Shown here: positions 1,492 to 64,000 of the stretch, in pieces
Position numbering within the stretch: position 1 is the stretch's first letter
Layout: every line of letters starts with the position of its first letter
Source: Pseudonocardiaceae bacterium
GTDB taxonomy: Bacteria; Actinomycetota; Actinomycetes; Mycobacteriales; Pseudonocardiaceae
Assembly (NCBI GenBank): GCA_035276605.1
Contig: DATELN010000126.1
Location: 641-64,640 of the forward strand
Direction of reading: 5' to 3'
Length of the DNA stretch: 64,000 nucleotides
The notes under the pieces: model-generated
The model's input: the letters and a program-made list of their open reading frames with translations, nothing else
Told to the model about the DNA's origin: nothing
Database searches by the model: none
Program-made: the position numbers and the translations under genes

Positions 1492-1721
1492 GCAGCGGTC
1501 GACCAAATGGTGCAACGCGGTCGACTGCCGCTACCCCATCTGCCGTAGCAAAGCTTTTTCATACCTTTTGTTAATCTGAAATTCCTTCAATGATAGCCCA
1601 TGTCGTGCAATATCGCCGGCTAACGGAACCGCATGACTCGCCGATTGTCCCAGTGTCACCGTCCACTGGAATCGAGGCGATCACGGTTGGGTGACTGCCC
1701 CAGTGAAAGGGAAGTTCCGCC

Positions 1722-2636
1722 ATGACCGTCTCCTTATTCGCGATTTTTGCCGTGGTGTTCGCGTTGGTCGCGCTCGTGATAATGCTCGACCTGCTGCGTA
1801 TCACCCGACGATTGCGTCATGCCGGCGCGACCCGCGCTGTAGTTGTCGCCACAGCTGTGATCGTGGCGATCATCGACATGTACCGCGCCGCACTGCCCGA
1901 CGCGGTCGCAGGACCCTTCCAGATAGCCACACTGACACTAAATATGGTGGCCCTTGCCGGCATCCCGCTCCTGCTCGACGCCCAGCGAATTACTCCCCGC
2001 ACCACACGCTTGCCCCGGCGCATCCTCGCAATCGGAGCCCATCCCGACGATCTGGAAATTGCTTGCGGAGGCACGCTGGCGAAGTTCGTGGACTCTGGTC
2101 ATGAGGTGCATGGCCTGGTGATGTCCGGTGGTGGGAGGGGCGGCGACGGCTGCGCCCGGCCTGGCGAGGCGCTGGCGGCCGCACAATTCATGCGGCTGAC
2201 CAGTCTCAGTGTGCTCGGGCTGCCAGATACGGAGCTGCCTGCTCACCAACGGACGATGATCGAGGCGATTGAGACAACGCTGTCCCGGCTCAATGCCGAC
2301 ATCGTACTGACTCATTCGATCAATGATGTCCATCAAGACCATCAAGCGGTGTACCTGGCGACGATGCGTGCCGCGCGCAATCATCCCGCAATCTTGTCTT
2401 ACGAAAGCCCGTCGGCGAACGAGCAATTCATGCCCCGCTGGTTCGTCGATATCGACCAGTACTTCGACGTCAAGGCCACTGCTGTTTCGGCGCATAGAGA
2501 TCAGGCGGGCAAGTCGTACTTATCCAAGAAGCACATGAAGGCGGTAGCGGTTGTCCGCGGCGCGCAGGCGAGGACTCGCTACGCCGAAGGCTTCGAGGTT
2601 GTCCGCTTGCTTGATACCCGCGCCGCCGACCTGTGA
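1722..2636 (+). CDS. PIG-L/LmbE-family de-N-acetylase with ~3 N-terminal transmembrane helices
   Basis: ILAIGAHPDDLEIACGG motif plus HSINDVHQDH. The N-terminal ~90 aa are hydrophobic. RBS AAGGGAAG lies upstream of the ATG at 1722. Confidence 0.8.
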   Translation: MTVSLFAIFAVVFALVALVIMLDLLRITRRLRHAGATRAVVVATAVIVAIIDMYRAALPDAVAGPFQIATLTLNMVALAGIPLLLDAQRITPRTTRLPRRILAIGAHPDDLEIACGGTLAKFVDSGHEVHGLVMSGGGRGGDGCARPGEALAAAQFMRLTSLSVLGLPDTELPAHQRTMIEAIETTLSRLNADIVLTHSINDVHQDHQAVYLATMRAARNHPAILSYESPSANEQFMPRWFVDIDQYFDVKATAVSAHRDQAGKSYLSKKHMKAVAVVRGAQARTRYAEGFEVVRLLDTRAADL

Positions 2637-3487
2637 GTGCCGCCAGGGTCCTCGTCACGGGCGTCGGTGGTCCCGCTGGCCGTAGCCTGTACACCCAGCT
2701 TGGCCAGCGCGGCATCGACGTGATCGCGGCCGACATGGCCGCGATCGAGCTGCCCAGCGCGCATCGGATACCGCCTGCAACCGAGCCCTCGTTCGCCGCC
2801 AAACTGGCAGCATTGGCTCACTGGGAACGGGCCGACCTAGTCGTGCCGACGGTCACAGAAGAGCTCGATGTGCTGGCGCAGCCAGGGCAATGGGCAGGTC
2901 CGCCCATTGTTCTCGCACCATGGACGGCGGTACGGCTCGCCGCAGATAAGTACCTGACGTGCATAGAGCTTGAACGCGCCGGTATCGCCGTACCCCGTTT
3001 CGCGCTGCCGTCAACGTTGGGCAAAAGATGGCTTGGTACACGTTATCTCAGTAAACCACGGATTAGCCGGGGTAGCCGCGGCATTGCCATCCATAACGGC
3101 TACGACAAATGCGGCCTTGACGATCGGTGGGTATTGCAGGAATACCTGCCGGGACGCGAGTACGCACCCAATGTCTACTTACACGCCGATCCACAACGCG
3201 ATGTCGTCATCGTGCTGGAAAAGACCGCGTGCAGCCACGGTGACTACGGCAATGCGACGAGCGTAATCCGGAAACACAACGCCGCGGTGGCTTCCCTCGC
3301 GCGGGCGTCAGCACGGGCACTCGGATTGCGGGGACCCGCTGACATTGATATTCGGTACAACGCCGACGGAGTTCCTGCCGTACTCGAAATCAATGCGCGG
3401 TTCGGAGCGAACTCCGCGCATGCCCCTGAGATTGTCGACGCACTGCTCGACGAGTGGTTGCCGCAGTTGCGCAGCGAGGTCGCATGA
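2633..3487 (+). CDS. ATP-grasp domain ligase
   Basis: The GTG start overlaps the upstream stop (GTGA). Motifs: LSKPRISRGSRGI, LQEYLPGREY, DGVPAVLEINARFG. Confidence 0.7.
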   Translation: MSAARVLVTGVGGPAGRSLYTQLGQRGIDVIAADMAAIELPSAHRIPPATEPSFAAKLAALAHWERADLVVPTVTEELDVLAQPGQWAGPPIVLAPWTAVRLAADKYLTCIELERAGIAVPRFALPSTLGKRWLGTRYLSKPRISRGSRGIAIHNGYDKCGLDDRWVLQEYLPGREYAPNVYLHADPQRDVVIVLEKTACSHGDYGNATSVIRKHNAAVASLARASARALGLRGPADIDIRYNADGVPAVLEINARFGANSAHAPEIVDALLDEWLPQLRSEVA

Positions 3488-6856: not shown

Positions 6857-6984
6857 CGAGAATTACCCCTGTTCACCCTTGAGCACTCACTGCGACGAAC
6901 TGAATCCGCAGAGTCACAGTACTCCTCCAACGCGTTATCTGACATATCGCGCCGAGGCCAAAGAGGAGAACGTGCACACCACCA

Positions 6985-57402: not shown

Positions 57403-58110
57403 TCACTGCGCGTTGCGGCCTCCCAGCTGCGCGTGGAGGAAACCTACCGTCGCGTCCCACGCCTTGGCGGCCTGGTCCGGGTCGTAGGTGCCGAGCAGGT
57501 TCTCGTCGTTGAAGAAGGCGTGTCCGGCCGGGTAGAAGCGGAAGTCAGGTCGCCGCCCGGTCTGCTGTTCGATGCTCGCCGCCAGCTCGCGAACCTGTTC
57601 GGGACCCTGAAAGTCGTCTTGCTCCCCGAAGTGACCCAACACCGCGGCGGAGAGGTTCTCGAAGCTGGGGTACGGCTCGCCGAGGACTGCGTAGAACGGC
57701 ACCGCGGCGCCGATCTTGTCGCCCTGCTGCGCGGCGAGTACGAGCACGAAGCCGCCACCCATGCAGAAACCAACCGCGCCGACCGTTGAGCTGGTGACTG
57801 CTTCGTGGCCAAGCAGGTAGTCCACCGCACCACCCAAGTCGCGGGCCGCCTGGTCTACCGGTAGCTGCTGCATGAGCTTGCCCGCCTCGTCGGCGTCGTG
57901 GGTGGTGGTACCGCCGTATAGATCGGGAGCCAGGGCGACGAAACCCTCGGCGGCCAGCCGGTTGGCCACATCGGCGATGTGGCTGGTCAGCCCCCACCAC
58001 TCCTGGATCACGACAACGCCCGGTCCCCGACCACCCGCAGGCAACGCCAGGTAGCCGTGCGCGGTCGCCCCATTACTCCCGAACGTCACATTCTGTACCC
58101 GATTCTCCAT
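57403..58110 (-). CDS. dienelactone hydrolase family protein
   Basis: PGVVVIQEWWGL, GFCMGGG. The ATG is at 58110. Confidence 0.85.
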   Translation of the reverse strand: MENRVQNVTFGSNGATAHGYLALPAGGRGPGVVVIQEWWGLTSHIADVANRLAAEGFVALAPDLYGGTTTHDADEAGKLMQQLPVDQAARDLGGAVDYLLGHEAVTSSTVGAVGFCMGGGFVLVLAAQQGDKIGAAVPFYAVLGEPYPSFENLSAAVLGHFGEQDDFQGPEQVRELAASIEQQTGRRPDFRFYPAGHAFFNDENLLGTYDPDQAAKAWDATVGFLHAQLGGRNAQ

Positions 58111-58176
58111 ACCCAAATCCCACCACACCTCCTCCCCCACCGCGTTCTGGATGCAGACTGCCGTTTTCGAGGTCCT

Positions 58177-58209
58177 AAAAACGGCAGTCTGCATCCAGAC
58201 TGCCGTTTT
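58177..58209 (-). terminator. intrinsic terminator downstream of the moeA-like gene
   Basis: The minus-strand RNA reads AAAACGGCAGUCU-GGAUGC-AGACUGCCGUUUUU. A third copy of the arm at 58155..58167 allows an alternative 21-bp hairpin. Confidence 0.6.
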
Positions 58210-58218
58210 GCGGGGGGC

Positions 58219-60105
58219 TCAGACGACGAGGTGGCCGGTTTCCGCGCACGAGTAGCCGTCGAGGGTTGCGATCTTGTTGTGGAATTGGGGGTTGGCGAGA
58301 AGGGTCCAGAGAGGGGCTAGTAGCGGCGACTCGTAGGTATCCCGGGTGAGCACCAGGTCGTAGGGCTCCTGGGTGACGGGCACGAAGTCCAATCCGTGCA
58401 GCCGCGCCGCGGCGAGGATGCCCATCCCGGCATCTGCTCGCCCGCCAGCCACCGCCGCGGCGACGGCGAGGTGAGTGCGTTCCTCGCGCCGGTAGCCGGC
58501 GACGTCGTCGGGCTCGATACCCCGGCGGCGCAGCTCGTAGTCGAGCAGCATCCGGGTTCCCGACTCCGGTTGCCGGTTGACGTAACGCAGGCCCGGACGG
58601 CGCAGGTCCTCGATACCGGCGATCTGCAGGGGGTTACCCGGCGCGACGATCAGCCCTTGTTCGCGGTGTACCAGGCGGATCACGGTGACCTCGACCTCGC
58701 CGAGCACCCGCGGCAGGTAGGGCAAGGTGTACTCGCCGGTATCCGGGTCGAGCAGGTGGCAGCCGGCGAGATGGCACAAACCGTCGCGCAGTGCCTGCAG
58801 TCCAGCCAGCGAGCCGACGGTGGATGAGGCAAGCGTGATGGTCGGGTCGACGTCGCGTAGCGCCGACGCGGCCACGTCGATCACCAGGTCGTGCGAGCCG
58901 ATGACCACGATGGTGCGGTCGATCTCCTCCAGCCCGCGCAGGAGGTTTACCTGGATGTCGGTGCCCGCGGGGAGGCCGCCCTGCCCGATCGGGACGACCG
59001 CCAACCCGTCGGCCCTGACCAGCGAGGTGAGCGCCCCGGCGCCGCGCGGCAGGGGCGTGGCGACCAGCCTCCCGCCGACCCTGCCTAACCGGAGTCGCAC
59101 CCAGTCGTCCTTGCCGATCGGGGAGGTGAGTGTGCGCGCGAGCCGGGCCTGCGCCCGCGGGCGAGTCAGGGTTGTGGTGCCTTGAAGAGCAGCCAACAAC
59201 GGCGCGGCGAACAGCTCAAAGCTCAGCGCCGCCGACACCGGGTACCCGGGCGCACCGAGCACTGCGGTAGTCCCCACGGTCCCCAGCACCACAGGATGCC
59301 CGGGCCGCACCGCCACCCCGTGCACCGCCAGGGTGCCTACCCGGGCCACCACGGAGGCGGTGTGGTCACTGCGGCCGCCGCTGGATCCGGCGATGATCAC
59401 CACCAGGTCGGCGCGCGGCGCAGCGGCGAGCACCGCCGCAGCGATCCGCTCGGGATCGTCCGGCTCGATGGGCAGCGGCAGCACCGCGCATCCGTGCTCA
59501 CCGGCCTGCCCGGCGAGCATCAGCGAGTTGGTATCGAGGATCTCCCCGATCCCGGGCTCCCAACCCAAGGGGCGGATCTCATCGCCGGTCGGCAAGATCG
59601 CGACGACCGGGCGGCGGCGCACCAGAATCTCGCTGACACCGGCGGCGGCTACCGCGGCGACATCGACGGCGCGCAACCGGTGCCCGGGCGGCAACAGCAA
59701 CTCCCCGGCCGCGACATCCTCGCCGATGGACCGGACGTGCTGGTACGGCGGCACCGCCGCGACCAGCTCCACGCCCTGGCCGACCGGGCGGACGTGCTCG
59801 CGCATCACCACCGCGTCCCGCTGCACTGAGAGTGGGTCGCCGGTGTCGATGAGATCAAAGTCAGTCAGCGTCAGCGGGGCGGCGGCGCTGGCGCTGGCAG
59901 TGTCCGCAGCGCGCACCGCGATGCCATCCATCCCGGCGGAGTCGAACGCGGGCGAAGAGCGCCGCGCCCACAGCGACTCGGCCGTGACCCGGCCGATCGC
60001 GGCCGCCAGTCCTAGCCGCTCGGTACCTACCCGATCCGGGCACCCGGCCGCGGCGCAGGCCGCGCGCCATGCGTCGAGCGCCTGAGCTGCCGGAAGGTCA
60101 CCCAC
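58219..60105 (-). CDS. moeA: molybdopterin molybdenumtransferase MoeA fused to a C-terminal periplasmic-binding-protein-like domain
   Basis: The N-terminal ~400 aa have the MoeA pattern (...RSIGEDVAAGE..., PTGDEI). The C-terminal ~220 aa are PBP/ModE-like. Confidence 0.8.
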   Translation of the reverse strand: MGDLPAAQALDAWRAACAAAGCPDRVGTERLGLAAAIGRVTAESLWARRSSPAFDSAGMDGIAVRAADTASASAAAPLTLTDFDLIDTGDPLSVQRDAVVMREHVRPVGQGVELVAAVPPYQHVRSIGEDVAAGELLLPPGHRLRAVDVAAVAAAGVSEILVRRRPVVAILPTGDEIRPLGWEPGIGEILDTNSLMLAGQAGEHGCAVLPLPIEPDDPERIAAAVLAAAPRADLVVIIAGSSGGRSDHTASVVARVGTLAVHGVAVRPGHPVVLGTVGTTAVLGAPGYPVSAALSFELFAAPLLAALQGTTTLTRPRAQARLARTLTSPIGKDDWVRLRLGRVGGRLVATPLPRGAGALTSLVRADGLAVVPIGQGGLPAGTDIQVNLLRGLEEIDRTIVVIGSHDLVIDVAASALRDVDPTITLASSTVGSLAGLQALRDGLCHLAGCHLLDPDTGEYTLPYLPRVLGEVEVTVIRLVHREQGLIVAPGNPLQIAGIEDLRRPGLRYVNRQPESGTRMLLDYELRRRGIEPDDVAGYRREERTHLAVAAAVAGGRADAGMGILAAARLHGLDFVPVTQEPYDLVLTRDTYESPLLAPLWTLLANPQFHNKIATLDGYSCAETGHLVV

Positions 60106-60132
60106 GAGGGCACGGTACCGGGACTCAGCCAG

Positions 60133-61995
60133 TCAGGACTGCGCTCCGGTACCGGCGAACTGGCCGTTCTGGCTGGTCCCCTGAGACGGGTCAGTGGGGT
60201 GATGGAGCTGGTAAAGGTGGGCGTACTGGTTGTTCTTCGTCAAGAGCTGGTCGTGGGTTCCGGTTTCGGTGATGCGACCGTGCTCGATGTAGATAATTTG
60301 ATCGGCGTCGGTGACGGTGAGCAGGTTGTGGGAAATGATGATGGTGGTGCGCCCGCTCATCAGCCGGCGTAGCGGGTCCAGGATGCGCTGTGCGGCGTCG
60401 GCATCGAGGCTGGTGGTGGGCTCGTCCAGGAGGAGGATGGGCGCATCGCGGATCATTGCTCGGGCGATCGCGAGGCGTTGGCGTTGCCCGCCGGACAGCA
60501 GCCGGCCGCGTTGCCCGACGCGGGTCTGGTAACCGTCGGGCAGCGCTTCGATGAACTCGTGCGCGTCCGCGGCTTTAGCCGCGGCGATAAGTTCGTTTTC
60601 GGTCGCATCGGGTCGACCGGCTCGGACGTTGTCGGCGATGGTGCCGTCGAGCAACAGGGTTTCCTGCAGCACGATCGCGATGTTGGCGCGCAGCTCGTCG
60701 GGATCGAGCTCCCGTAGATCGTGACCGTCGAGGATGATCTTCCCGGCGGTCGGGTCGTAGAACCGCAGCAGCAGTTTGAGCAGAGTGGTCTTGCCCGCAC
60801 CGCTAGCGCCCACGATGGCAGTGGTCTGGCCGGCTCCCACGGTGAAGCTGACGCCGTTTAGGACATCGGTCTGGGTCTGCGGGTAGGCGAAGCTGACGTG
60901 GTCCAAGACGAGCTGCCCGCGCGCCCGGCCCAGCGCGATCGGACGCTCCGGCGCGGTGACACTAGGTTGCTCGTCGAGCAGTTCGATGATCCGCTCCGCG
61001 GCCGCAGCAGCGGCGAACAGCGACGTGGACAGCGCACCCAGGCCCTGCACTGGCCCGTATAGCTGGGACAGAAACACCAGGAAAGCCAATAGCCCACCCA
61101 GTGTGATGTTGCCGGCGGTCAACTCCCAGATGCCAACCCCCAGGATGGTCAGGATTCCGAGCACCTGCACCAGGTCGACCAGCGGGGAGAACATCGCCCC
61201 GAGCCGAGTGGCCGCCAGCTCGGCGTTGACACTGCCGATACTTTGCGCAGCGAAGCGCTCCACCTCGGCGCCCTCGCGGCCGTAAGCCTGGATCAAGGTG
61301 GCGTTGCCCAGACTCTCTTCAGCGACCACACCGATGGACCCCGCGCGGCGGCGGACCTCCCGGGAGGCGATCTTGATGCGGCGGGCGAATATCCGGGCGG
61401 CGATCCAGAACACCGGTATCGCGATCAGCGACGCCAACGCCAGTCGCCAGTCCAGGAAGAACAGCACCGTGCCGAATACGCCGATTCTCAACACGTTGGC
61501 GAACAGGCCGATGACTCCGGAGAGCACCACAGACTCGATTGCGGCCACGTCGCCGGTCAGCCTGGACATCAGATCACCGAGCGGGCGGCGATCAAAGAAG
61601 CTCACCGACAGGGTGTGCAGATGCGCGAACACCCGGGTGCGCATGCGGTGCAGGAAATTCTCCCCGATCCACGCCCCCAGATACGTCCCGAGGAAGCCCA
61701 ATGCCCCCACCAGGAGCGTGATACCGATGAACGCTGCGGCAACCGGCGGGAACGCGGAGAAATCGCGCGGCGTCAACACCTTGTCGACCAGCACCTTGAA
61801 CAGCAAGATCGCGCCGGTGTCCACTGCTGGCGTGATGATGATCAACACCAGGCTCAGCCACAACCACCGCCAGAATGGCCGAGCATCGGGCCAGAACCGC
61901 CGGAACACCTCCCGCAGGCTTGCTGCCGGTGCCGCCTCCACCAGACCGCCGTCAGGCGACGCGGGACGCGTCAACGACCGCAGCATCTCCCACAC
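60133..61995 (-). CDS. ABC exporter, fused permease-ATPase (MsbA-like)
   Basis: Six N-terminal TM segments; GASGAGKTT, LSGGQRQR, ILLLDEPTT. Confidence 0.9.
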   Translation of the reverse strand: MWEMLRSLTRPASPDGGLVEAAPAASLREVFRRFWPDARPFWRWLWLSLVLIIITPAVDTGAILLFKVLVDKVLTPRDFSAFPPVAAAFIGITLLVGALGFLGTYLGAWIGENFLHRMRTRVFAHLHTLSVSFFDRRPLGDLMSRLTGDVAAIESVVLSGVIGLFANVLRIGVFGTVLFFLDWRLALASLIAIPVFWIAARIFARRIKIASREVRRRAGSIGVVAEESLGNATLIQAYGREGAEVERFAAQSIGSVNAELAATRLGAMFSPLVDLVQVLGILTILGVGIWELTAGNITLGGLLAFLVFLSQLYGPVQGLGALSTSLFAAAAAAERIIELLDEQPSVTAPERPIALGRARGQLVLDHVSFAYPQTQTDVLNGVSFTVGAGQTTAIVGASGAGKTTLLKLLLRFYDPTAGKIILDGHDLRELDPDELRANIAIVLQETLLLDGTIADNVRAGRPDATENELIAAAKAADAHEFIEALPDGYQTRVGQRGRLLSGGQRQRLAIARAMIRDAPILLLDEPTTSLDADAAQRILDPLRRLMSGRTTIIISHNLLTVTDADQIIYIEHGRITETGTHDQLLTKNNQYAHLYQLHHPTDPSQGTSQNGQFAGTGAQS

Positions 61996-62159
61996 AGCTG
62001 CTCCCTCTCTCGGTCTGGCTGCCGACTCTACTCTGCCCGATTTACTGAAGCCGGGTCTTGCAAGTGGGGCTGAATCTTGCCGCGTCGAATTGTGAGCATA
62101 GCGAGGCGGTGGCCCTTACCCGCTAGAGCGAGATCGAGCCACCGCCGACGAGGCGTCGA

Positions 62160-62390
62160 CTACAGGATTCCCAGGAGCCGGTAGTGGCCCTCGTAGGTGT
62201 AGCCGCCGAAGTTGTAACCGTTGTAGTAGAAAGGCTTGCGGCCGTAGTCCCGGCTGTAGTCGTAGCCGTTGAAGTACGGGTAGAAGCCTTGGGTGCAGTC
62301 GTCACGGTTGCAGTTGTACCCCGGCACGCTAGCGTCGTTGTTACTGCCGTTACCGCCGCCACCCAGTGCGAAGACTGCTGAGATCCTCAT
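62160..62390 (-). CDS. 76-aa Tyr/Gly/Asn-rich small protein (paralog 1)
   Basis: The ATG at 62390 is preceded by AAGGAGCGAT. 12 of 76 residues are Tyr, with two Cys (NCNRDDC). No signal peptide is evident. Confidence 0.5.
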   Translation of the reverse strand: MRISAVFALGGGGNGSNNDASVPGYNCNRDDCTQGFYPYFNGYDYSRDYGRKPFYYNGYNFGGYTYEGHYRLLGIL

Positions 62391-62598
62391 ATCGCTCCTT
62401 ATTCCTGCTCGCTGAAGAGCCATGCAAGGAAAAAGACCCAGACCCGACGCGAGGAAATCATGCGCCACCGTGGCACAGCGCGAGGTCGCAAGACCTCATT
62501 GACGTGCGGTACGGCGCCGGGACAGTTCCGCGAGATAGTTCCGCCCCAAAGATGACGCGATGCAGCGTCCTAGCGAACCCTCCCCAGCACCACACAGA

Positions 62599-62730
62599 CA
62601 GCTTGTCAATCCGCTGTGTTCGGCGGTATCCCCCTAGGTGATCCGAGCTGGCCCCCTACTCTCCGTGGTCAAGCACACACAAAATAAGGGATACGGAGCG
62701 TGATTGCAATAAGCAACTCTAAGTACACGT
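62599..62730 (-). promoter_or_regulatory. conserved non-coding module upstream of paralog 1
   Basis: Blocks shared with 63325..63452 (minus strand): AGTTGC.ATTGC; TGCTTGACCACGGRGAGTARGGGG..CCAGCTCGGATCA; ATTGACAAGCTG. Confidence 0.55.
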
Positions 62731-62943
62731 GTGGGTACGCACAGTGAACACAGCAGCACTCGCCTCGCCCGGTGGCGGGCATGCCCCGCCCGCCATCGAG
62801 CAGGCCATCACTGTCCGCACTGTCGGCACGTTCCGCCGGCTGTGACGGTCACGGCGTCGCGACCGTACCGGGCAGCGTCTCGTCGGTGTGCGTAACCTCA
62901 CCAGTCGTCGACGCTCAGCGACGACGACCCGGCTCCGGCTCGA

Positions 62944-63174
62944 TTACCCTATGAGAGTGCCCATTCTATGGCTGTGGGTGAAACCGTAGCCCTCGCCGGT
63001 GGGCGGCCAGTTGTAGTTATCCGGGCTGACGTAGGTCCAGCGGCCGTAATCCGGGTAGTACCCGCCCGGCTTCTCGACTGTGCCATACCTGAGGTAGGTT
63101 TCCCGGCCACCGGTGTATCCACAGTATCCGCCCCGGTCGCAGTTAAGCCTTGCAAAGATTTCCGAGACCCTCAT
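62944..63174 (-). CDS. 76-aa Tyr/Gly-rich small protein (paralog 2)
   Basis: The ATG at 63174 is preceded by AAGGAGCGAC. 10 of 76 residues are Tyr, with NCDRGGYC. It has the same length and N-terminus (MRVSEIFA versus MRISAVFA) as paralog 1. Confidence 0.5.
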   Translation of the reverse strand: MRVSEIFARLNCDRGGYCGYTGGRETYLRYGTVEKPGGYYPDYGRWTYVSPDNYNWPPTGEGYGFTHSHRMGTLIG

Positions 63175-63324
63175 GTCGCTCCTTTCTCGCTGATGGTGGA
63201 GGAGCCAAGCAGGCCAGAAGGCCGAAATCAGCCTGCGAATTTGCCCGCAGCCACCTGAGCGCGACGCCGTATGCACTCCGTCAGACAGCGTCAGCTGCGT
63301 CAGCGCAGCCGGCCTCAATGCCGG

Positions 63325-63452
63325 CAGCTTGTCAATCGCCGCACTCGGTAACAACCCCAAGATGATCCGAGCTGGCTCCCCCTTACTCCCCGTGGTCAAG
63401 CAATCTCGAAAGTAAGCCATCCGAGTGGTGAAAGCAATGGCAACTTCACGTA
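63325..63452 (-). promoter_or_regulatory. conserved non-coding module upstream of paralog 2
   Basis: Same three blocks as 62599..62730. Confidence 0.55.
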
Positions 63453-63556
63453 TTCGAGTGGTTACAGTCAGTACTAGACGCAGGCTATGGCCTTTCAAAG
63501 CACTGCTGCCGGGTGCAGAGCGTGCGCACACCATCACGCTCGGGGCTCGCGCTGGC

Positions 63557-64000
63557 TCACCCGCCCGCGTCTGCACAGCTGAACACGATGTTGTCCCCGG
63601 TGACCAGTGGGATGTCGCCGTCGGAGTCGATCGCACTGCTGTTTAGCGTGGTGACTAGCCGGCTGGGCAGGCCGAGACCCACCGCGGCGGCGGCGCCGAA
63701 CAGCGTGGCGGCACGAACGGCATGTGGTCCGCCGCGGCCGTCGATCGTCACCGTTTGCACGGTCACCTGTGGTGCCAGCCGTTGCCGGGCGGCTTGGTAC
63801 TCGTCGGGAGTATTGACGTTGACTACCGACTCCAGCGCCGGATCAGCCGTGGCCAGCGCGGGATCTACGAGTAATGCGGCATCGTCCAGGTGCAGCGTGG
63901 CGCACCGGCGAAACAGCAGGGTCACACGCAGCTCACCGGCCGCGAGCAGCTCAGCGAGCAGTGGCGCGAGGGTGACCCGATAAGCCGCGGCCAGCGGCTG
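63557..64000 (-). CDS. mobA: molybdenum cofactor guanylyltransferase MobA (3' part; the gene continues beyond the window) with a C-terminal ThiS/MoaD-like extension ending in GG
   Basis: QPLAAAYR..., VVNVNTPDEY, then ~75 extra residues ...IPLVTGDNIVFSCADAGG-stop. Confidence 0.65.
   Translation of the reverse strand, partial: QPLAAAYRVTLAPLLAELLAAGELRVTLLFRRCATLHLDDAALLVDPALATADPALESVVNVNTPDEYQAARQRLAPQVTVQTVTIDGRGGPHAVRAATLFGAAAAVGLGLPSRLVTTLNSSAIDSDGDIPLVTGDNIVFSCADAGG

What the first reader, a model, noticed from the sequence alone, without database searches (positions are those of the whole stretch)
62160..63452. Tandem pair of 76-aa Tyr/Gly-rich proteins, each behind a conserved ~130-nt non-coding module, next to an ABC exporter
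Seen: there are two minus-strand ORFs of identical length (76 aa). Their RBS-start contexts are near-identical (AAGGAGCGAT-ATG and AAGGAGCGAC-ATG). They share an N-terminus (MRISAVFA / MRVSEIFA) and a two-Cys motif (NCNRDDC / NCDRGGYC), contain 12 and 10 tyrosines plus many Gly/Asn/Pro, and have no obvious signal peptide. About 150-210 nt upstream of each start lie the same blocks (minus strand): AGTTGC.ATTGC, TGCTTGACCACGGRGAGTARGGGG(GA)GCCAGCTCGGATCA and ATTGACAAGCTG. The sequence between the blocks and the start is not conserved. Block conservation is uniform across codon positions, and paralog 1 has a stop in the frame that is open in paralog 2, so the blocks are non-coding. They could be a promoter plus activator site (two TTGAC motifs) or the 5' part of a structured leader. 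The pair lies directly upstream, on the same strand with a 165-nt gap, of an MsbA-like ABC exporter. It lies between mobA and moeA-like genes. Inference: these are unknown small proteins under a shared dedicated control element. They could be exported peptides, such as a bacteriocin or signal, or Tyr-rich low-complexity stress or assembly proteins.
Basis: partly seen in the sequence, partly recalled or inferred. Interest (0 to 1): 0.65.

Follow-up and report, generated by a model that had tools for sequence, protein, structure and literature searches.

The report
Shared leader RNA before tyrosine-rich miniproteins
The two 76-residue genes are real members of a previously undescribed, many-copy family of tyrosine/glycine-rich miniproteins in uncultured soil actinomycetes (Pseudonocardiaceae). 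Each member sits behind the same promoter and the same long 5' leader RNA, which probably controls translation, so the finding is a new gene-plus-regulator module, not a one-off pair.

Summary
Two 76-aa minus-strand ORFs (62160-62390, 62944-63174) each lie behind the same conserved blocks.

With related sequences the picture grows:
- The blocks occur in more than 100 distinct copies, at 3-5 or more loci per genome, only in uncultured Pseudonocardiaceae MAGs.
- 87 of 90 testable copies precede a 55-80-aa ORF with a fixed N-terminus (MR[IV]S[ED][IV]F.mGG), a fixed C-terminus (..LLG[IL]L) and a hypervariable Tyr/Gly-rich middle.

What the blocks are:
- Block 1 is the -35 region of a sigmaA-type promoter (TTGCAA, 17 nt, TAnnTT).
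- Blocks 2 and 3 lie downstream of the -10 and are covered by metatranscriptome contigs.
- They form the invariant 5' end of a 130-370-nt leader.

How the leader probably works:
- Its 5' arm is complementary to its own 3' arm (cognate versus non-cognate, p<1e-4).
- A CU-rich anti-SD can pair with SD+AUG or with the 5' G-run.
- The best reading is a cis-acting translational switch with an unknown trigger.

Context:
- A BldD-box-like palindrome sits upstream.
- An orthologous ABC exporter follows a family member in 32 of 89 loci.
- One homologue carries a Sec signal peptide, so export is likely but unproven.

There is no Rfam, Pfam, NCBIfam or literature match. Formal covariation support is modest.

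The parts
62160..62390 (-). Miniprotein P1, 76 aa (family 1). MRISAVFALGGGG...SVPGYNCNRDDC...GYNFGGYTYEGHYRLLGIL.
   Evidence: ORF. There are 12 homologue clusters at 65-91% identity with 35 invariant columns. Third-position bias is shown. Metatranscriptome contigs cover it.
62944..63174 (-). Miniprotein P2, 76 aa (family 2). MRVSEIFARLNCDR...KPGGYYPDYGRWTYV...GYGFTHSHRMGTLIG.
   Evidence: ORF. There are 10 homologue clusters at 59-97% identity. Third-position bias is shown. Metatranscriptome contigs cover it.
62391..62676 (-). 5' leader of P1, about 285 nt. The 5' end is predicted, not mapped.
   Evidence: The -10 ends at 62681. RNA contigs are continuous from the ORF to 62655 or 62678. The leader architecture is shared by 90 leaders.
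63175..63403 (-). 5' leader of P2, about 229 nt. The 5' end is predicted, not mapped.
   Evidence: The -10 ends at 63409. RNA contigs reach 63382-63384. The same architecture is seen.
62639..62672 (-). Invariant 5' block of the P1 leader: TTGACCACGGAGAGTAGGGGGCCAGCTCGGATCA. It holds the G-rich SD-like run and the 5' strand of the long-range helix (GCUCGGAUC, 62640-62648).
   Evidence: Exact matches. Invariant in 100 aligned copies. The helix with 62436-62444 is paired in 82.5% of cells.
63363..63399 (-). Invariant 5' block of the P2 leader: TTGACCACGGGGAGTAAGGGGGAGCCAGCTCGGATCA. The 5' strand of the helix is at 63364-63372; its partner GCUGAUUUCGGC is at 63221-63232.
   Evidence: The pairing was read, and the helix columns come.
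62599..62611 (-). It is part of the 5' arm and is transcribed.
   Evidence: Covered by RNA contigs from X24, X26, X30 and X42.
63325..63337 (-).
   Evidence: Covered by RNA contigs from X26, X42 and X43.
62681..62709 (-). Predicted sigmaA-type promoter of P1: -35 TTGCAA (62704-62709), 17 nt, -10 TATTTT (62681-62686).
   Evidence: Position-specific conservation in 115 copies, with 17-18-nt spacing. A generic E. coli-type scanner does not call it.
63409..63437 (-). Predicted sigmaA-type promoter of P2: -35 TTGCTT (63432-63437), 17 nt, -10 TACTTT (63409-63414).
62735..62747 (-). BldD-box-like palindrome upstream of the P1 promoter: TCAC-TGTGC-GTAC.
   Evidence: A fixed-position motif 75-77 nt upstream of TGACC. 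T.AC-N5-GT occurs in 74 of 108 copies and TCAC-N5-GTG in 44 of 108. The consensus TNAC(N)5GTNA is from PMC4151990.
63462..63474 (-). BldD-box-like sequence upstream of the P2 promoter: GTAC-TGACT-GTAA. The first base deviates from the consensus.
62391..62424 (-). P1 anti-SD/SD module: CAUGGCUCUUC (62414-62424), loop, AAGGAGC (62394-62400), then the ATG.
   Evidence: The block is conserved in all leaders. GCUCCU:AGGAGC is paired in 87% of cells and CAU:AUG in 89%.
63172..63206 (-). P2 anti-SD/SD module: GGCUCCUCC (63198-63206), loop, AAGGAGC (63178-63184), ATG (63172-63174).
   Evidence: In the MFE fold the anti-SD pairs with the 5' GGGGGAGCC.
62105..62146 (-). Strong hairpin after the P1 stop codon (GGCGGUGGCUC...GGGCCACCGCC). 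Likely a terminator without a U-tract.
   Evidence: -35.9 kcal/mol here, and a family-wide mean z of -2.6 for the 70 nt after the stop. No RNA contig covers 62014-62127. The simple terminator scan is negative.
62891..62942 (-). Hairpin after the P2 stop codon (GUCGUCG..CGACGAC core).
   Evidence: One RNA contig (X42) nevertheless runs through it.
60133..61995 (-). ABCB-type half-transporter (exporter fold), 620 aa. No peptidase domain.
   Evidence: Pfam ABC_membrane+ABC_tran. Below the MsbA cut-offs. PDB relatives are ABCB1, Sav1866, TmrAB and MsbA. An orthologue lies directly downstream of a family member in 32 of 89 loci.

Best explanation
The two ORFs are translated genes of a lineage-specific superfamily of 55-80-aa Tyr/Gly(/Asn/Asp/His/Cys)-rich miniproteins. 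Members share a fixed N-terminus (MR[IV]S[ED][IV]F.mGG), a fixed C-terminus (..LLG[IL]L/G) and a hypervariable middle.

Each member is its own unit. In order it carries:
- a BldD-box-like palindrome;
- a 130-370-nt leader;
- the ORF;
- a hairpin after the stop codon.

Shown:
- the blocks are gene-specific and nearly invariant;
- they lie downstream of the conserved -10 and are transcribed;
- the 5' arm is more complementary to its own 3' arm than to the arms of other leaders.

Inferred:
- The leader folds into a long panhandle.
- A CU-rich anti-SD (GGCUCCUCC, preceded by CAU) just upstream of the SD can pair with SD+AUG, which blocks translation.
- Alternatively it can pair with the invariant G-rich, SD-like 5' end (GGGGAGUAAGGGGGG), which frees the SD.
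- Whatever sequesters, removes or releases the single-stranded 5' block would switch all paralogues together. Candidates are a protein, a small RNA, a ligand, temperature or 5' processing.

Also inferred:
- The miniproteins are exported, plausibly by the conserved neighbouring ABC exporter.
- They act outside the cell as structural, adhesive or antimicrobial peptides, possibly under developmental (BldD-like) transcriptional control.
For: Family and coupling:
- The exact core 19-mer gave 116 or more stretches in GTDB genomes. The true copies are all in Pseudonocardiaceae/Pseudonocardiales MAGs, on several contigs per MAG.
- 87 of 90 distinct copies are followed by a family ORF.
- A third family on the opposite strand uses the same leader.

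Coding:
-.

Promoter:
- Conserved TTGCAA, 17-18 nt, TAnnTT, with 9-11 nt from the -10 to TGACC.

Transcription:
- Metatranscriptome contigs cover ORF plus leader up to 62655 or 62678 (P1) and 63382-63384 (P2).
- Two runs reach depth ~36.
- In 7 of 8 runs nothing lies upstream of the predicted promoters.

Structure:
- Cognate 5'/3' arm duplex energy is -46.5 kcal/mol, against -42.2 for non-cognate and -37.1 for shuffled arms; permutation p<1e-4.
- 77-79% of cells are paired in register, against 30-58% when the register is slid.
- The consensus fold of the short-leader subfamily shows the long stem plus the SD hairpin.
- MFE folds pair the 5' G-run with the anti-SD.
- The predicted unpaired probability of the SD is 0.52 with the native 5' block and 0.42 with the block deleted or shuffled (25 of 34 leaders, p=2e-4).

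Export:
- An ABC orthologue lies downstream of a member in 32 of 89 loci, next to members of different subfamilies, and also where moeA is missing.
- Homologue P0024 has a Sec-type signal peptide fused to the family-1 domain and lacks the leader element.

BldD-like box:
- Found at a fixed position; consensus from PMC4151990.
Against: Structure:
- Formal covariation is weak. The percentage paired equals the column-shuffle expectation.
- Double-change cells are only 21 versus 14.9 expected (17 of 500 shuffles) and 26 versus 15.6 (4 of 500). The tool itself warns that such values occur without any structure.
- RNAalifold returns no consensus on the gapped family-wide alignments.
- Anti-SD/SD pairing shows no cognate preference (p=0.6).
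- The invariant 5' block cannot covary, so its RNA role rests on complementarity and in-silico folding alone.

Transcription:
- The TSS is not mapped.
- Contig ends inside the invariant block are probably assembly breaks at a repeat.
- One RNA contig spans the P2-P1 spacer, which means read-through or contaminating DNA.

Export:
- No signal peptide is evident.
- The exporter has no C39 peptidase domain.
- No bacteriocin-leader model matches.
- Most paralogues are not next to an exporter.

Fold:
- AlphaFold gives no confident fold (pLDDT 39.6).
Confidence: 0.5

Rival explanations
1. The leader is a true ligand-sensing riboswitch of a new class. The invariant, mostly unpaired 5' nucleotides, together with the junction of the arms, form an aptamer. 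The anti-SD/SD hairpin is its expression platform.
For: - More than 100 copies share a near-invariant 20-35-nt core that is not explained by pairing.
- Conserved helices flank the core.
- An SD-sequestering platform is present.
- No Rfam family matches.
- The element is dedicated to one gene family, as with several orphan riboswitch candidates (my knowledge).
Against: - The conserved core sits at the extreme 5' end and is predicted to be single-stranded, not enclosed by helices.
- No pocket-like multi-stem junction is supported by covariation.
- The apical part varies from 0 to more than 200 nt.
- The regulated genes give no hint of a ligand.
Confidence: 0.2
2. Blocks 2 and 3 work as DNA. They would be operators for a transcription factor, or a second promoter, located downstream of or overlapping the start site. 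The RNA complementarity would then be incidental.
For: - Invariance at the primary-sequence level without covariation.
- Two TTGAC motifs are present.
- Other conserved DNA motifs (BldD-like box, conserved spacer) show that the region is dense in DNA signals.
Against: - The blocks are neither palindromic nor direct repeats.
- No -10 lies at a fixed spacing after either TTGAC, and a 3-7-nt indel falls inside the first candidate spacer.
- The blocks are present in RNA contigs.
- The arms show cognate complementarity.
- The native 5' block raises predicted SD accessibility.
Confidence: 0.12
3. The miniproteins are intracellular, intrinsically disordered stress proteins, hydrophilin-like, for desiccation or cold. 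They would be induced together through the leader (for example a thermosensor) and not exported. The ABC exporter would be only a syntenic neighbour.
For: - No signal peptide is evident.
- Low-complexity Tyr/Gly/Asn/Asp composition, with AlphaFold pLDDT 39.6.
- The host MAGs come from soils, including desert and Antarctic soils (record names).
- A long structured 5' UTR recalls the cold-shock cspA mRNA (my knowledge).
- Most paralogues lie away from any exporter.
Against: - Orthologues are well conserved within subfamilies, with 35 invariant columns in family 1. That is unusual for disordered protectants.
- Cys pairs recur.
- The ABC orthologue always has a member upstream, even when the subfamily differs.
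- A homologue with a signal peptide exists.
- The predicted temperature effect on the SD is small and generic: 0.48 at 10 C against 0.54 at 45 C.
Confidence: 0.25
4. They are RiPP or bacteriocin precursors. The conserved N-terminus, ending in GG, would be a leader. The conserved C-terminus would be a recognition or follower sequence. The hypervariable middle would be the core, processed by enzymes encoded elsewhere and exported by the ABC transporter.
For: - Conserved ends with a hypervariable core across many paralogues. This pattern is known from prochlorosin and cyanobactin precursor families (my knowledge).
- GG or GGG at residues 10-12 in most members.
- An adjacent ABC exporter.
Against: - No modifying enzyme, C39 peptidase or immunity gene at any of the loci inspected.
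- No leader-peptide model matches.
- GG is missing in several subfamilies, and in the window's P2 residues 10-12 are LNC.
- The leader would be only 11-12 aa.
- Cores of ~55 aa are conserved within subfamilies.
Confidence: 0.1
5. The conservation reflects recent duplication or gene conversion of a cassette (promoter, leader, first codons) without a specific regulatory function. It would amount to a gene-associated repeat.
For: - Multi-copy and dispersed.
- One subfamily carries a partial tandem duplication of the 5' block.
- One copy lies next to a transposase.
Against: - The block is invariant across MAGs whose orthologous ABC proteins are only 80-92% identical, and across paralogues whose coding regions no longer align.
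- Conservation is patchy and position-specific (-35, -10, 5' block, anti-SD, SD), not a uniform recent copy.
- There are no hits in viral contigs or plasmids.
Confidence: 0.05

Closest known systems
SD-sequestering 5' UTR switches with an anti-anti-SD (translational riboswitch expression platforms; the cspA cold-shock mRNA leader; ROSE/fourU RNA thermometers)
   Same: - A long 5' leader.
- A CU-rich segment complementary to the SD and the start codon.
- A distal upstream segment able to compete for that segment.
- Predicted control at translation initiation.
   Different: - No Rfam family matches.
- The competing segment is an invariant, SD-like G-run at the very 5' end of the transcript.
- The two ends of the leader form a panhandle around an apical region of very variable length.
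- The same leader is used by 8 or more paralogous genes per genome.
- The trigger is unknown.
Orphan riboswitch candidates tied to a single family of hypothetical genes (Breaker-lab comparative-genomics motifs; my knowledge)
   Same: A conserved non-coding element, always upstream of one gene family, with many representatives and an SD-occluding stem.
   Different: - The distribution is restricted to one uncultured actinomycete clade.
- Covariation support is weak.
- The conserved core is not enclosed by supported helices.
Families of precursor peptides with conserved leader and hypervariable core (class II double-glycine bacteriocins, prochlorosins, cyanobactins) exported by ABC transporters
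   Same: Many paralogues, conserved termini, a variable middle, a GG near the N-terminus, and a neighbouring ABC exporter.
   Different: - No C39 peptidase domain and no tailoring enzymes.
- The N-terminal motif is only ~11 residues and not always GG.
- The middle is Tyr/Gly-rich and hydrophilic, not amphipathic or hydrophobic.
Tyr/Gly-rich structural or adhesive miniproteins (Bacillus spore-coat CotC/CotU; mussel foot protein 3; Gly/Tyr-rich antimicrobial peptides of nematodes). Compositional analogues recalled from memory.
   Same: Size 45-80 aa. Extreme Tyr, Gly, Asn, Arg, Lys and His content. Predicted disorder.
   Different: There is no sequence homology. The cellular location and any cross-linking are untested here. 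The hosts are actinomycetes.
BldD regulon promoters of sporulating actinomycetes (BldD box TNAC-N5-GTNA; PMC4151990)
   Same: A pseudo-palindrome that fits the box at a fixed position upstream of the promoter. One copy (TCACGCTGCGTGT) matches the canonical TCACGCTGCGTGA in 12 of 13 positions.
   Different: - Only 26 of 108 copies fit the full consensus.
- The site lies ~20 nt upstream of the -35.
- The presence of BldD in these MAGs was not tested.

Membership tests
Any Rfam RNA family | Covariance-model match | tested here: not met
   cmscan of 58000-64000 at E<=1 gave only a spurious mir-2067 hit elsewhere, at 58144-58201.
Riboswitch | Conserved aptamer whose helices are supported by covariation | tested here: inconclusive
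   Cells are 77-79% paired in register, against 30-58% when slid. Double changes barely exceed the shuffles (17 of 500 and 4 of 500). The cognate-arm test gives p<1e-4.
Riboswitch | Expression platform that occludes the SD or a terminator | tested here: met
   GCUCCU:AGGAGC is paired in 87% of cells and CAU:AUG in 89%. The feature appears in the consensus fold. This is prediction only.
Riboswitch | Direct ligand binding | not testable with these tools
   Needs in-line probing or ITC.
RNA thermometer (ROSE/fourU type) | An SD paired by a short imperfect stem that melts over the physiological range | tested here: inconclusive
   The predicted unpaired probability of the SD is 0.48 at 10 C and 0.54 at 45 C. 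This is a small, generic effect. There is no Rfam match.
Double-glycine-leader bacteriocin / PCAT system | C39 peptidase domain on the ABC exporter | tested here: not met
   Pfam finds only ABC_membrane (45-316) and ABC_tran (379-528).
Double-glycine-leader bacteriocin / PCAT system | Leader matching curated bacteriocin-leader models, with an invariant GG | tested here: not met
   No Pfam or NCBIfam hit at E<=1. GG is absent in P2 of the window and in several subfamilies.
RiPP biosynthetic cluster | A tailoring enzyme encoded next to the precursor | tested here: not met
   The neighbours are MobA, the ABC exporter, MoeA and DLH, or unrelated genes (MDMPI, hydrolase, DsbD, TldD, GGDEF-EAL, transposase). 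Enzymes encoded elsewhere are not excluded.
MsbA lipid A exporter | Score above the NCBIfam equivalog cut-off | tested here: not met
   TIGR02203 scores 485.6 bits against a cut-off of 602, and PRK11176 scores 382.5 against 867. It is a generic ABCB-type exporter.
BldD regulon | BldD box 5'-TNAC(N)5GTNA-3' in the promoter region | tested here: inconclusive
   At the fixed site, 26 of 108 copies show the full box, 44 of 108 show TCAC-N5-GTG and 74 of 108 show T.AC-N5-GT. The window's P1 and P2 each fit 5 of the 6 specified bases.
BldD regulon | BldD present and binding | not tested
   The MAGs were not searched for bldD. EMSA or ChIP would be needed.
Generic dispersed repeat (REP/MITE) | Copies independent of a particular gene, with terminal inverted repeats | tested here: not met
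   87 of 90 copies precede a family ORF in a fixed orientation. There are only two copies in the 64-kb window and none in viral contigs or plasmids.
Upstream ORF / leader peptide | A conserved reading frame with third-position variation | tested here: not met
   The variable positions of the block (N of NTG, R of GGRG, RRR) are not third-codon positions. Indels of 1-7 nt follow the G-run. The frame is stopped in P1.

The most novel reading that the evidence does not exclude
A clade of uncultured soil Pseudonocardiaceae carries a regulon of 8 or more hypervariable, mussel-adhesive-like Tyr/Gly-rich exported miniproteins. All of them are switched together by one new class of sensory leader RNA, with an invariant 5'-terminal SD-mimic acting as anti-anti-SD in response to a ligand or factor. 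A BldD/c-di-GMP developmental control is layered on top. That would be a new RNA sensor class plus a new class of extracellular matrix or spore-surface proteins.
Probability: 0.15. Interest if true: 0.85.

Novelty: new variant of a known kind. Interest (0 to 1): 0.64.

Why it matters
If the reading is right, this is a compact and highly replicated natural system: more than 100 sequence-diverse copies of one promoter-leader-ORF design. Three things follow.

- **A new regulatory RNA.** It would be a new cis-regulatory RNA in Actinobacteria with an unusual logic, in which an SD-mimic at the 5' end acts as anti-anti-SD across a panhandle. Simple reporter mutants can test this.
- **A new protein family.** The Tyr/Gly-rich miniproteins have no entry in any family database. 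They are abundant in soil and rhizosphere metatranscriptomes. Their composition suggests adhesive, cross-linkable or antimicrobial extracellular material.
- **A handle on uncultured soil actinomycetes.** It offers a way into developmental or stress regulation in a widespread clade that has not been cultured.

It also shows that 'hypothetical' 70-aa ORFs in high-GC MAGs can be validated through their shared leaders.

Tried and rejected
- **Rfam.** An E-value scan found nothing at the locus.
- **Pfam and NCBIfam.** Nothing matched the miniproteins.
- **Generic promoter/terminator scanner.** It found nothing. The promoter call therefore rests on conservation and the actinobacterial TAnnnT rule.
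- **Local structure of the 5' domain.** A local hairpin (CUCGG/CCGAG, GCUUG/CAAGC) was considered by eye and dropped, because variants break it. The long-range partner fits better.
- **Cognate versus non-cognate test for anti-SD/SD.** No signal.
- **uORF or leaderless-ORF reading of NTG-ACC-ACG.** Rejected: the variation is not at third positions, and frame-shifting indels follow.
- **Second-promoter reading of the TTGAC motifs.** Rejected: no -10 follows, and the motifs lie in RNA.
- **AlphaFold on family 1.** pLDDT 39.6, so no fold search was run.
- **Profile search of 1.84 billion representatives.** Only 4 clusters were found.
- **Viral contigs and plasmids.** No copies.
- **Literature searches.** Nothing relevant except the BldD box.
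- **Contig ends as TSS evidence.** Rejected for P2: three contigs end inside the repeated block, which is probably an assembly break.
- **Molybdenum link.** Not supported: the ABC and miniprotein genes persist without moeA.


Full report
**1. The observation**

On the minus strand of the window there are two 76-aa ORFs.
- P1 is at 62160-62390: MRISAVFALGGGG...HYRLLGIL.
- P2 is at 62944-63174: MRVSEIFARLNCDR...RMGTLIG.

Their start contexts are nearly identical. Each block occurs exactly twice in the 64-kb window. Downstream lie a 620-aa ABC exporter and a MoeA-PBP fusion. Upstream lies the C-terminal half of a MobA-like protein.

**2. The ORFs are genes**

Neither protein matches Pfam or NCBIfam. 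Both have homologues, all labelled 'hypothetical' and all from Pseudonocardiales or Pseudonocardiaceae metagenome bins.
- Family 1 (P1) has 35 invariant columns, including SVPGY.C..D.C and GYN.GGY.Y.
- Family 2 (P2) has an invariant KPGGYYPD.GRW.Y. Its two Cys are not conserved.

Differences between orthologous coding sequences concentrate at third codon positions (1239/759/1844 and 1053/1066/1746), and 38-47% of differing codons are synonymous. A joint alignment suggests the two families are distant paralogues along their whole length. AlphaFold gives no confident fold (pLDDT 39.6).

**3. The pair is part of a large family with one shared leader**

In 17 homologous loci the order is conserved: MobA-like gene, family-2 gene, family-1 gene, ABC exporter, then (MoeA-PBP), then DLH hydrolase. 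Every small gene carries the core TGACCACGGRGAGTRRRGG 213-302 nt upstream. Three loci hold a third, Cys-rich family on the other strand behind the same element.

By my arithmetic about 140 chance hits would be expected, and hits in Kribbella, Bryobacterales and others are indeed unrelated. The true copies carry the other blocks as well. All of them are in uncultured Pseudonocardiaceae, Pseudonocardiales or 'Mycobacteriales' MAGs, with 3-5 separate loci per MAG.

Of 90 distinct copies with enough downstream sequence, 87 precede an ORF beginning M[RKS][IV][SA].[IV][FL]. These ORFs share three features:
- length 54-80 aa;
- the N-terminus MR[IV]S[ED][IV]F.mGG (or MSIAGIFAMGG) and the C-terminus ..LLG[IL]L(G);
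- completely different middles, rich in Tyr, Gly, Asn, Asp, His, Arg and Cys.

So the blocks are multi-copy but strictly gene-specific. They are not a generic repeat, and there are no copies in viral contigs or plasmids.

**4. What the blocks are**

Anchoring 115 copies on the conserved TAnnTT gives this consensus:

ttcAC.ga.cGTg...gTACggaAAGTTattgTTGCAATCgcCACcCGgATGGCTTActTTCGagtTtgc-TGACC

This reads as a -35-like TTGCAA, 17-18 nt, and a -10-like TAnnTT. That fits the actinobacterial housekeeping-sigma pattern TTGACA/TAnnnT (my knowledge). The E. coli-tuned scanner does not call it.

TGACC begins 9-11 nt after the -10, so blocks 2 and 3 should be the first ~75 nt of the mRNA.

Evidence from metatranscriptome contigs (88% identity or more):
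- They run continuously from the P1 ORF into its leader, up to 62655 and 62678.
- They run from the P2 ORF into its leader, up to 63382-63384.
- In seven of eight runs nothing lies between 62698 and 62982, or beyond 63438.
- Two runs reach depth ~36.

Caveats:
- These are assembled contigs of related strains.
- The ends at 63382-63384 fall inside the repeated block and are probably assembly breaks.
- One contig spans the P2-P1 spacer, which means read-through or DNA.

A coding reading of the block is rejected. Its variable positions are not third positions, indels of 1-7 nt follow the G-run, and P1 has a stop in that frame.

**5. Leader anatomy**

Besides the invariant 5' block, the last ~70 nt of every leader are conserved:

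GGUCYGGGUCUUUU..GGCUUGCAUGGCUCCUCCAUCG....GAAAAGGAGCGAU-AUG

Findings on the fold:
- GCUCCU is complementary to the SD AGGAGC, and CAU to the AUG. In a 29-sequence alignment of diverse leaders these pairs form in 87% and 89% of cells.
- The consensus fold of the short-leader subfamily shows this hairpin plus a long stem that joins the 5' arm to the 3' arm.
- A column-pair scan picks GCUCGGA:UCCGGGU as the best long-range helix. It is 82.5% paired.
- The 5' G-run pairs with the anti-SD in 85% of cells and in the MFE folds of both window leaders.

Statistics:
- The 5' arm of a leader binds its own 3' arm better than the arms of other leaders: -46.5 against -42.2 kcal/mol, with -37.1 for shuffled arms (permutation p<1e-4).
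- In register, 77-79% of cells pair, against 30-58% when slid.
- The column shuffles are not clearly exceeded, and compensatory double changes are few (17 of 500 and 4 of 500).
- The anti-SD/SD pair shows no cognate preference.
- RNAalifold fails on the gapped alignments.
- In silico, the SD is more accessible with the native 5' block (0.52) than with the block deleted or shuffled (0.42). This holds in 25 of 34 leaders (p=2e-4).

I therefore regard the panhandle and the three-way competition (5' SD-like G-run, anti-SD, SD) as the best-supported model. It is not proven. The trigger is unknown.

**6. Other signals**

- A pseudo-palindrome sits 75-77 nt upstream of TGACC. T.AC-N5-GT occurs in 74 of 108 copies, TCAC-N5-GTG in 44 of 108, and the full TNAC-N5-GTNA in 26 of 108. 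Shuffled controls give 1-12.
- This is the published BldD box (PMC4151990). One copy differs from the canonical TCACGCTGCGTGA by a single base. It is a lead towards developmental control, not a demonstration.
- The 70 nt after the stop codons fold unusually stably (mean z -2.6). No RNA contig covers the gap between P1 and the ABC gene. This suggests mostly monocistronic units.

**7. What the proteins may do**

Points in favour of an extracytoplasmic role, with the ABC exporter as the route:
- The orthologous ABC exporter (80-92% identity) lies directly downstream of a family member in 32 of 89 element-bearing loci.
- The member next to it belongs to different subfamilies in different lineages.
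- The linkage persists where moeA is absent.
- A profile search of 1.84 billion representatives found only four clusters. One of them (P0024) is a family-1 domain behind a classical Sec signal peptide, without the leader element.

Points against or limiting:
- Other paralogues have unrelated neighbours and no tailoring enzymes.
- The exporter has no peptidase domain. It is a generic ABCB-type half-transporter.
- Most paralogues are unlinked to any exporter.

Composition recalls spore-coat CotC/CotU, mussel foot protein 3 and Gly/Tyr-rich antimicrobial peptides. That comparison is from memory and rests on composition only.

**8. Comparison and novelty**

No Rfam, Pfam, NCBIfam or literature record was found. 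In kind, the RNA is an SD-occluding leader, and the proteins resemble leader/core peptide families. In detail, I know of no described counterpart for these features:
- an invariant 5'-terminal SD-mimic;
- a panhandle around a variable apex;
- one leader shared by a whole paralogue family;
- Tyr/Gly-rich cores between fixed termini.

**9. Verdict**

This is a real, new promoter-leader-miniprotein module. The mechanism is inferred at moderate confidence and the function is unknown.

Noticed in passing
window 58144-58201 (-): A ~24-bp near-perfect hairpin (UCUGGAUGCAGACUGCCGUUUU..AAAACGGCAGUCUGCAUCCAGA) lies between the moeA-PBP stop codon and the DLH hydrolase gene. It produced a spurious Rfam mir-2067 hit (34.8 bits against a gathering score of 70). 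It may be a terminator or a palindromic element. The longest ORF call for the DLH gene runs through it.
   Followed up: no
window 63557-64000 (-): The MobA-like (NTP_transf_3) gene upstream has a C-terminal extension ending ...IVFSCADAGG. This resembles a MoaD/ThiS-type Gly-Gly terminus (from memory), which would make it a MobA-MoaD-like fusion. It is 68% identical to the homologue in L001.
   Followed up: partly
L007 1055-1440 (-), also L008, L009, L027: A third miniprotein family lies behind the same leader on the opposite strand: MRISDIFAMGGSCGQSYGGGCYSGCHGDC...KAHKGAY (57 aa, Cys-rich). It has a variant SD (GGGGGAAGG) and a matching variant anti-SD (CUUCUCC).
   Followed up: partly
L134 504-797: P0024 is a 97-aa homologue with a Sec-type signal peptide fused to the family-1 C-terminal domain. 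Its upstream region lacks the leader element. Its 3' hairpin resembles that of the window's P1. It comes from a single 926-nt contig.
   Followed up: partly
L050 ~1640-1700 (-), L084 ~2600-2660 (-), L120 ~6900-6960 (-): In the '...RRLGKL' subfamily the 5' block is partly duplicated in tandem: GCGTGACCGCGGGGAGT-TGCGTGACCACGGGGAGTAAGG.
   Followed up: no
L035, L043, L046, L056, L114 (Kribbella genomes): Five Kribbella genomes share a different conserved sequence that begins with the same 19-mer (TGACCACGGGGAGTGAGGGCCGGGGCCGGAAGCGTGATGACGGCC...GGCATGG). It contains a GC-rich hairpin just before an ATG. It may be an unrelated conserved leader.
   Followed up: no
window 62210-63384 (run X42, one contig): A 1179-nt metatranscriptome contig at depth 36.5 from a related strain spans P2 leader, P2, spacer, P1 leader and P1. 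This is either read-through of the P2 hairpin or DNA in the RNA library.
   Followed up: partly
window 58219-60105 (-) and homologous loci: MoeA is fused to a PBP_like (PF12727) domain. The block MobA - miniproteins - ABC - MoeA-PBP - DLH - Rieske - PMT is syntenic across the clade. In some lineages moeA is missing while the ABC exporter and the miniprotein genes remain.
   Followed up: partly
leader 5' block, e.g. window 63363-63372 and 62639-62648 (-): The conserved GGAUCACCU / GGAUCAUCU in the leader is the same as, or one base from, the sequence near the 3' end of 16S rRNA that precedes the anti-SD (recalled from memory). The adjacent AAGGGGG is complementary to the anti-SD with one G-U pair. 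Whether the block mimics or engages the ribosome is unknown.
   Followed up: no
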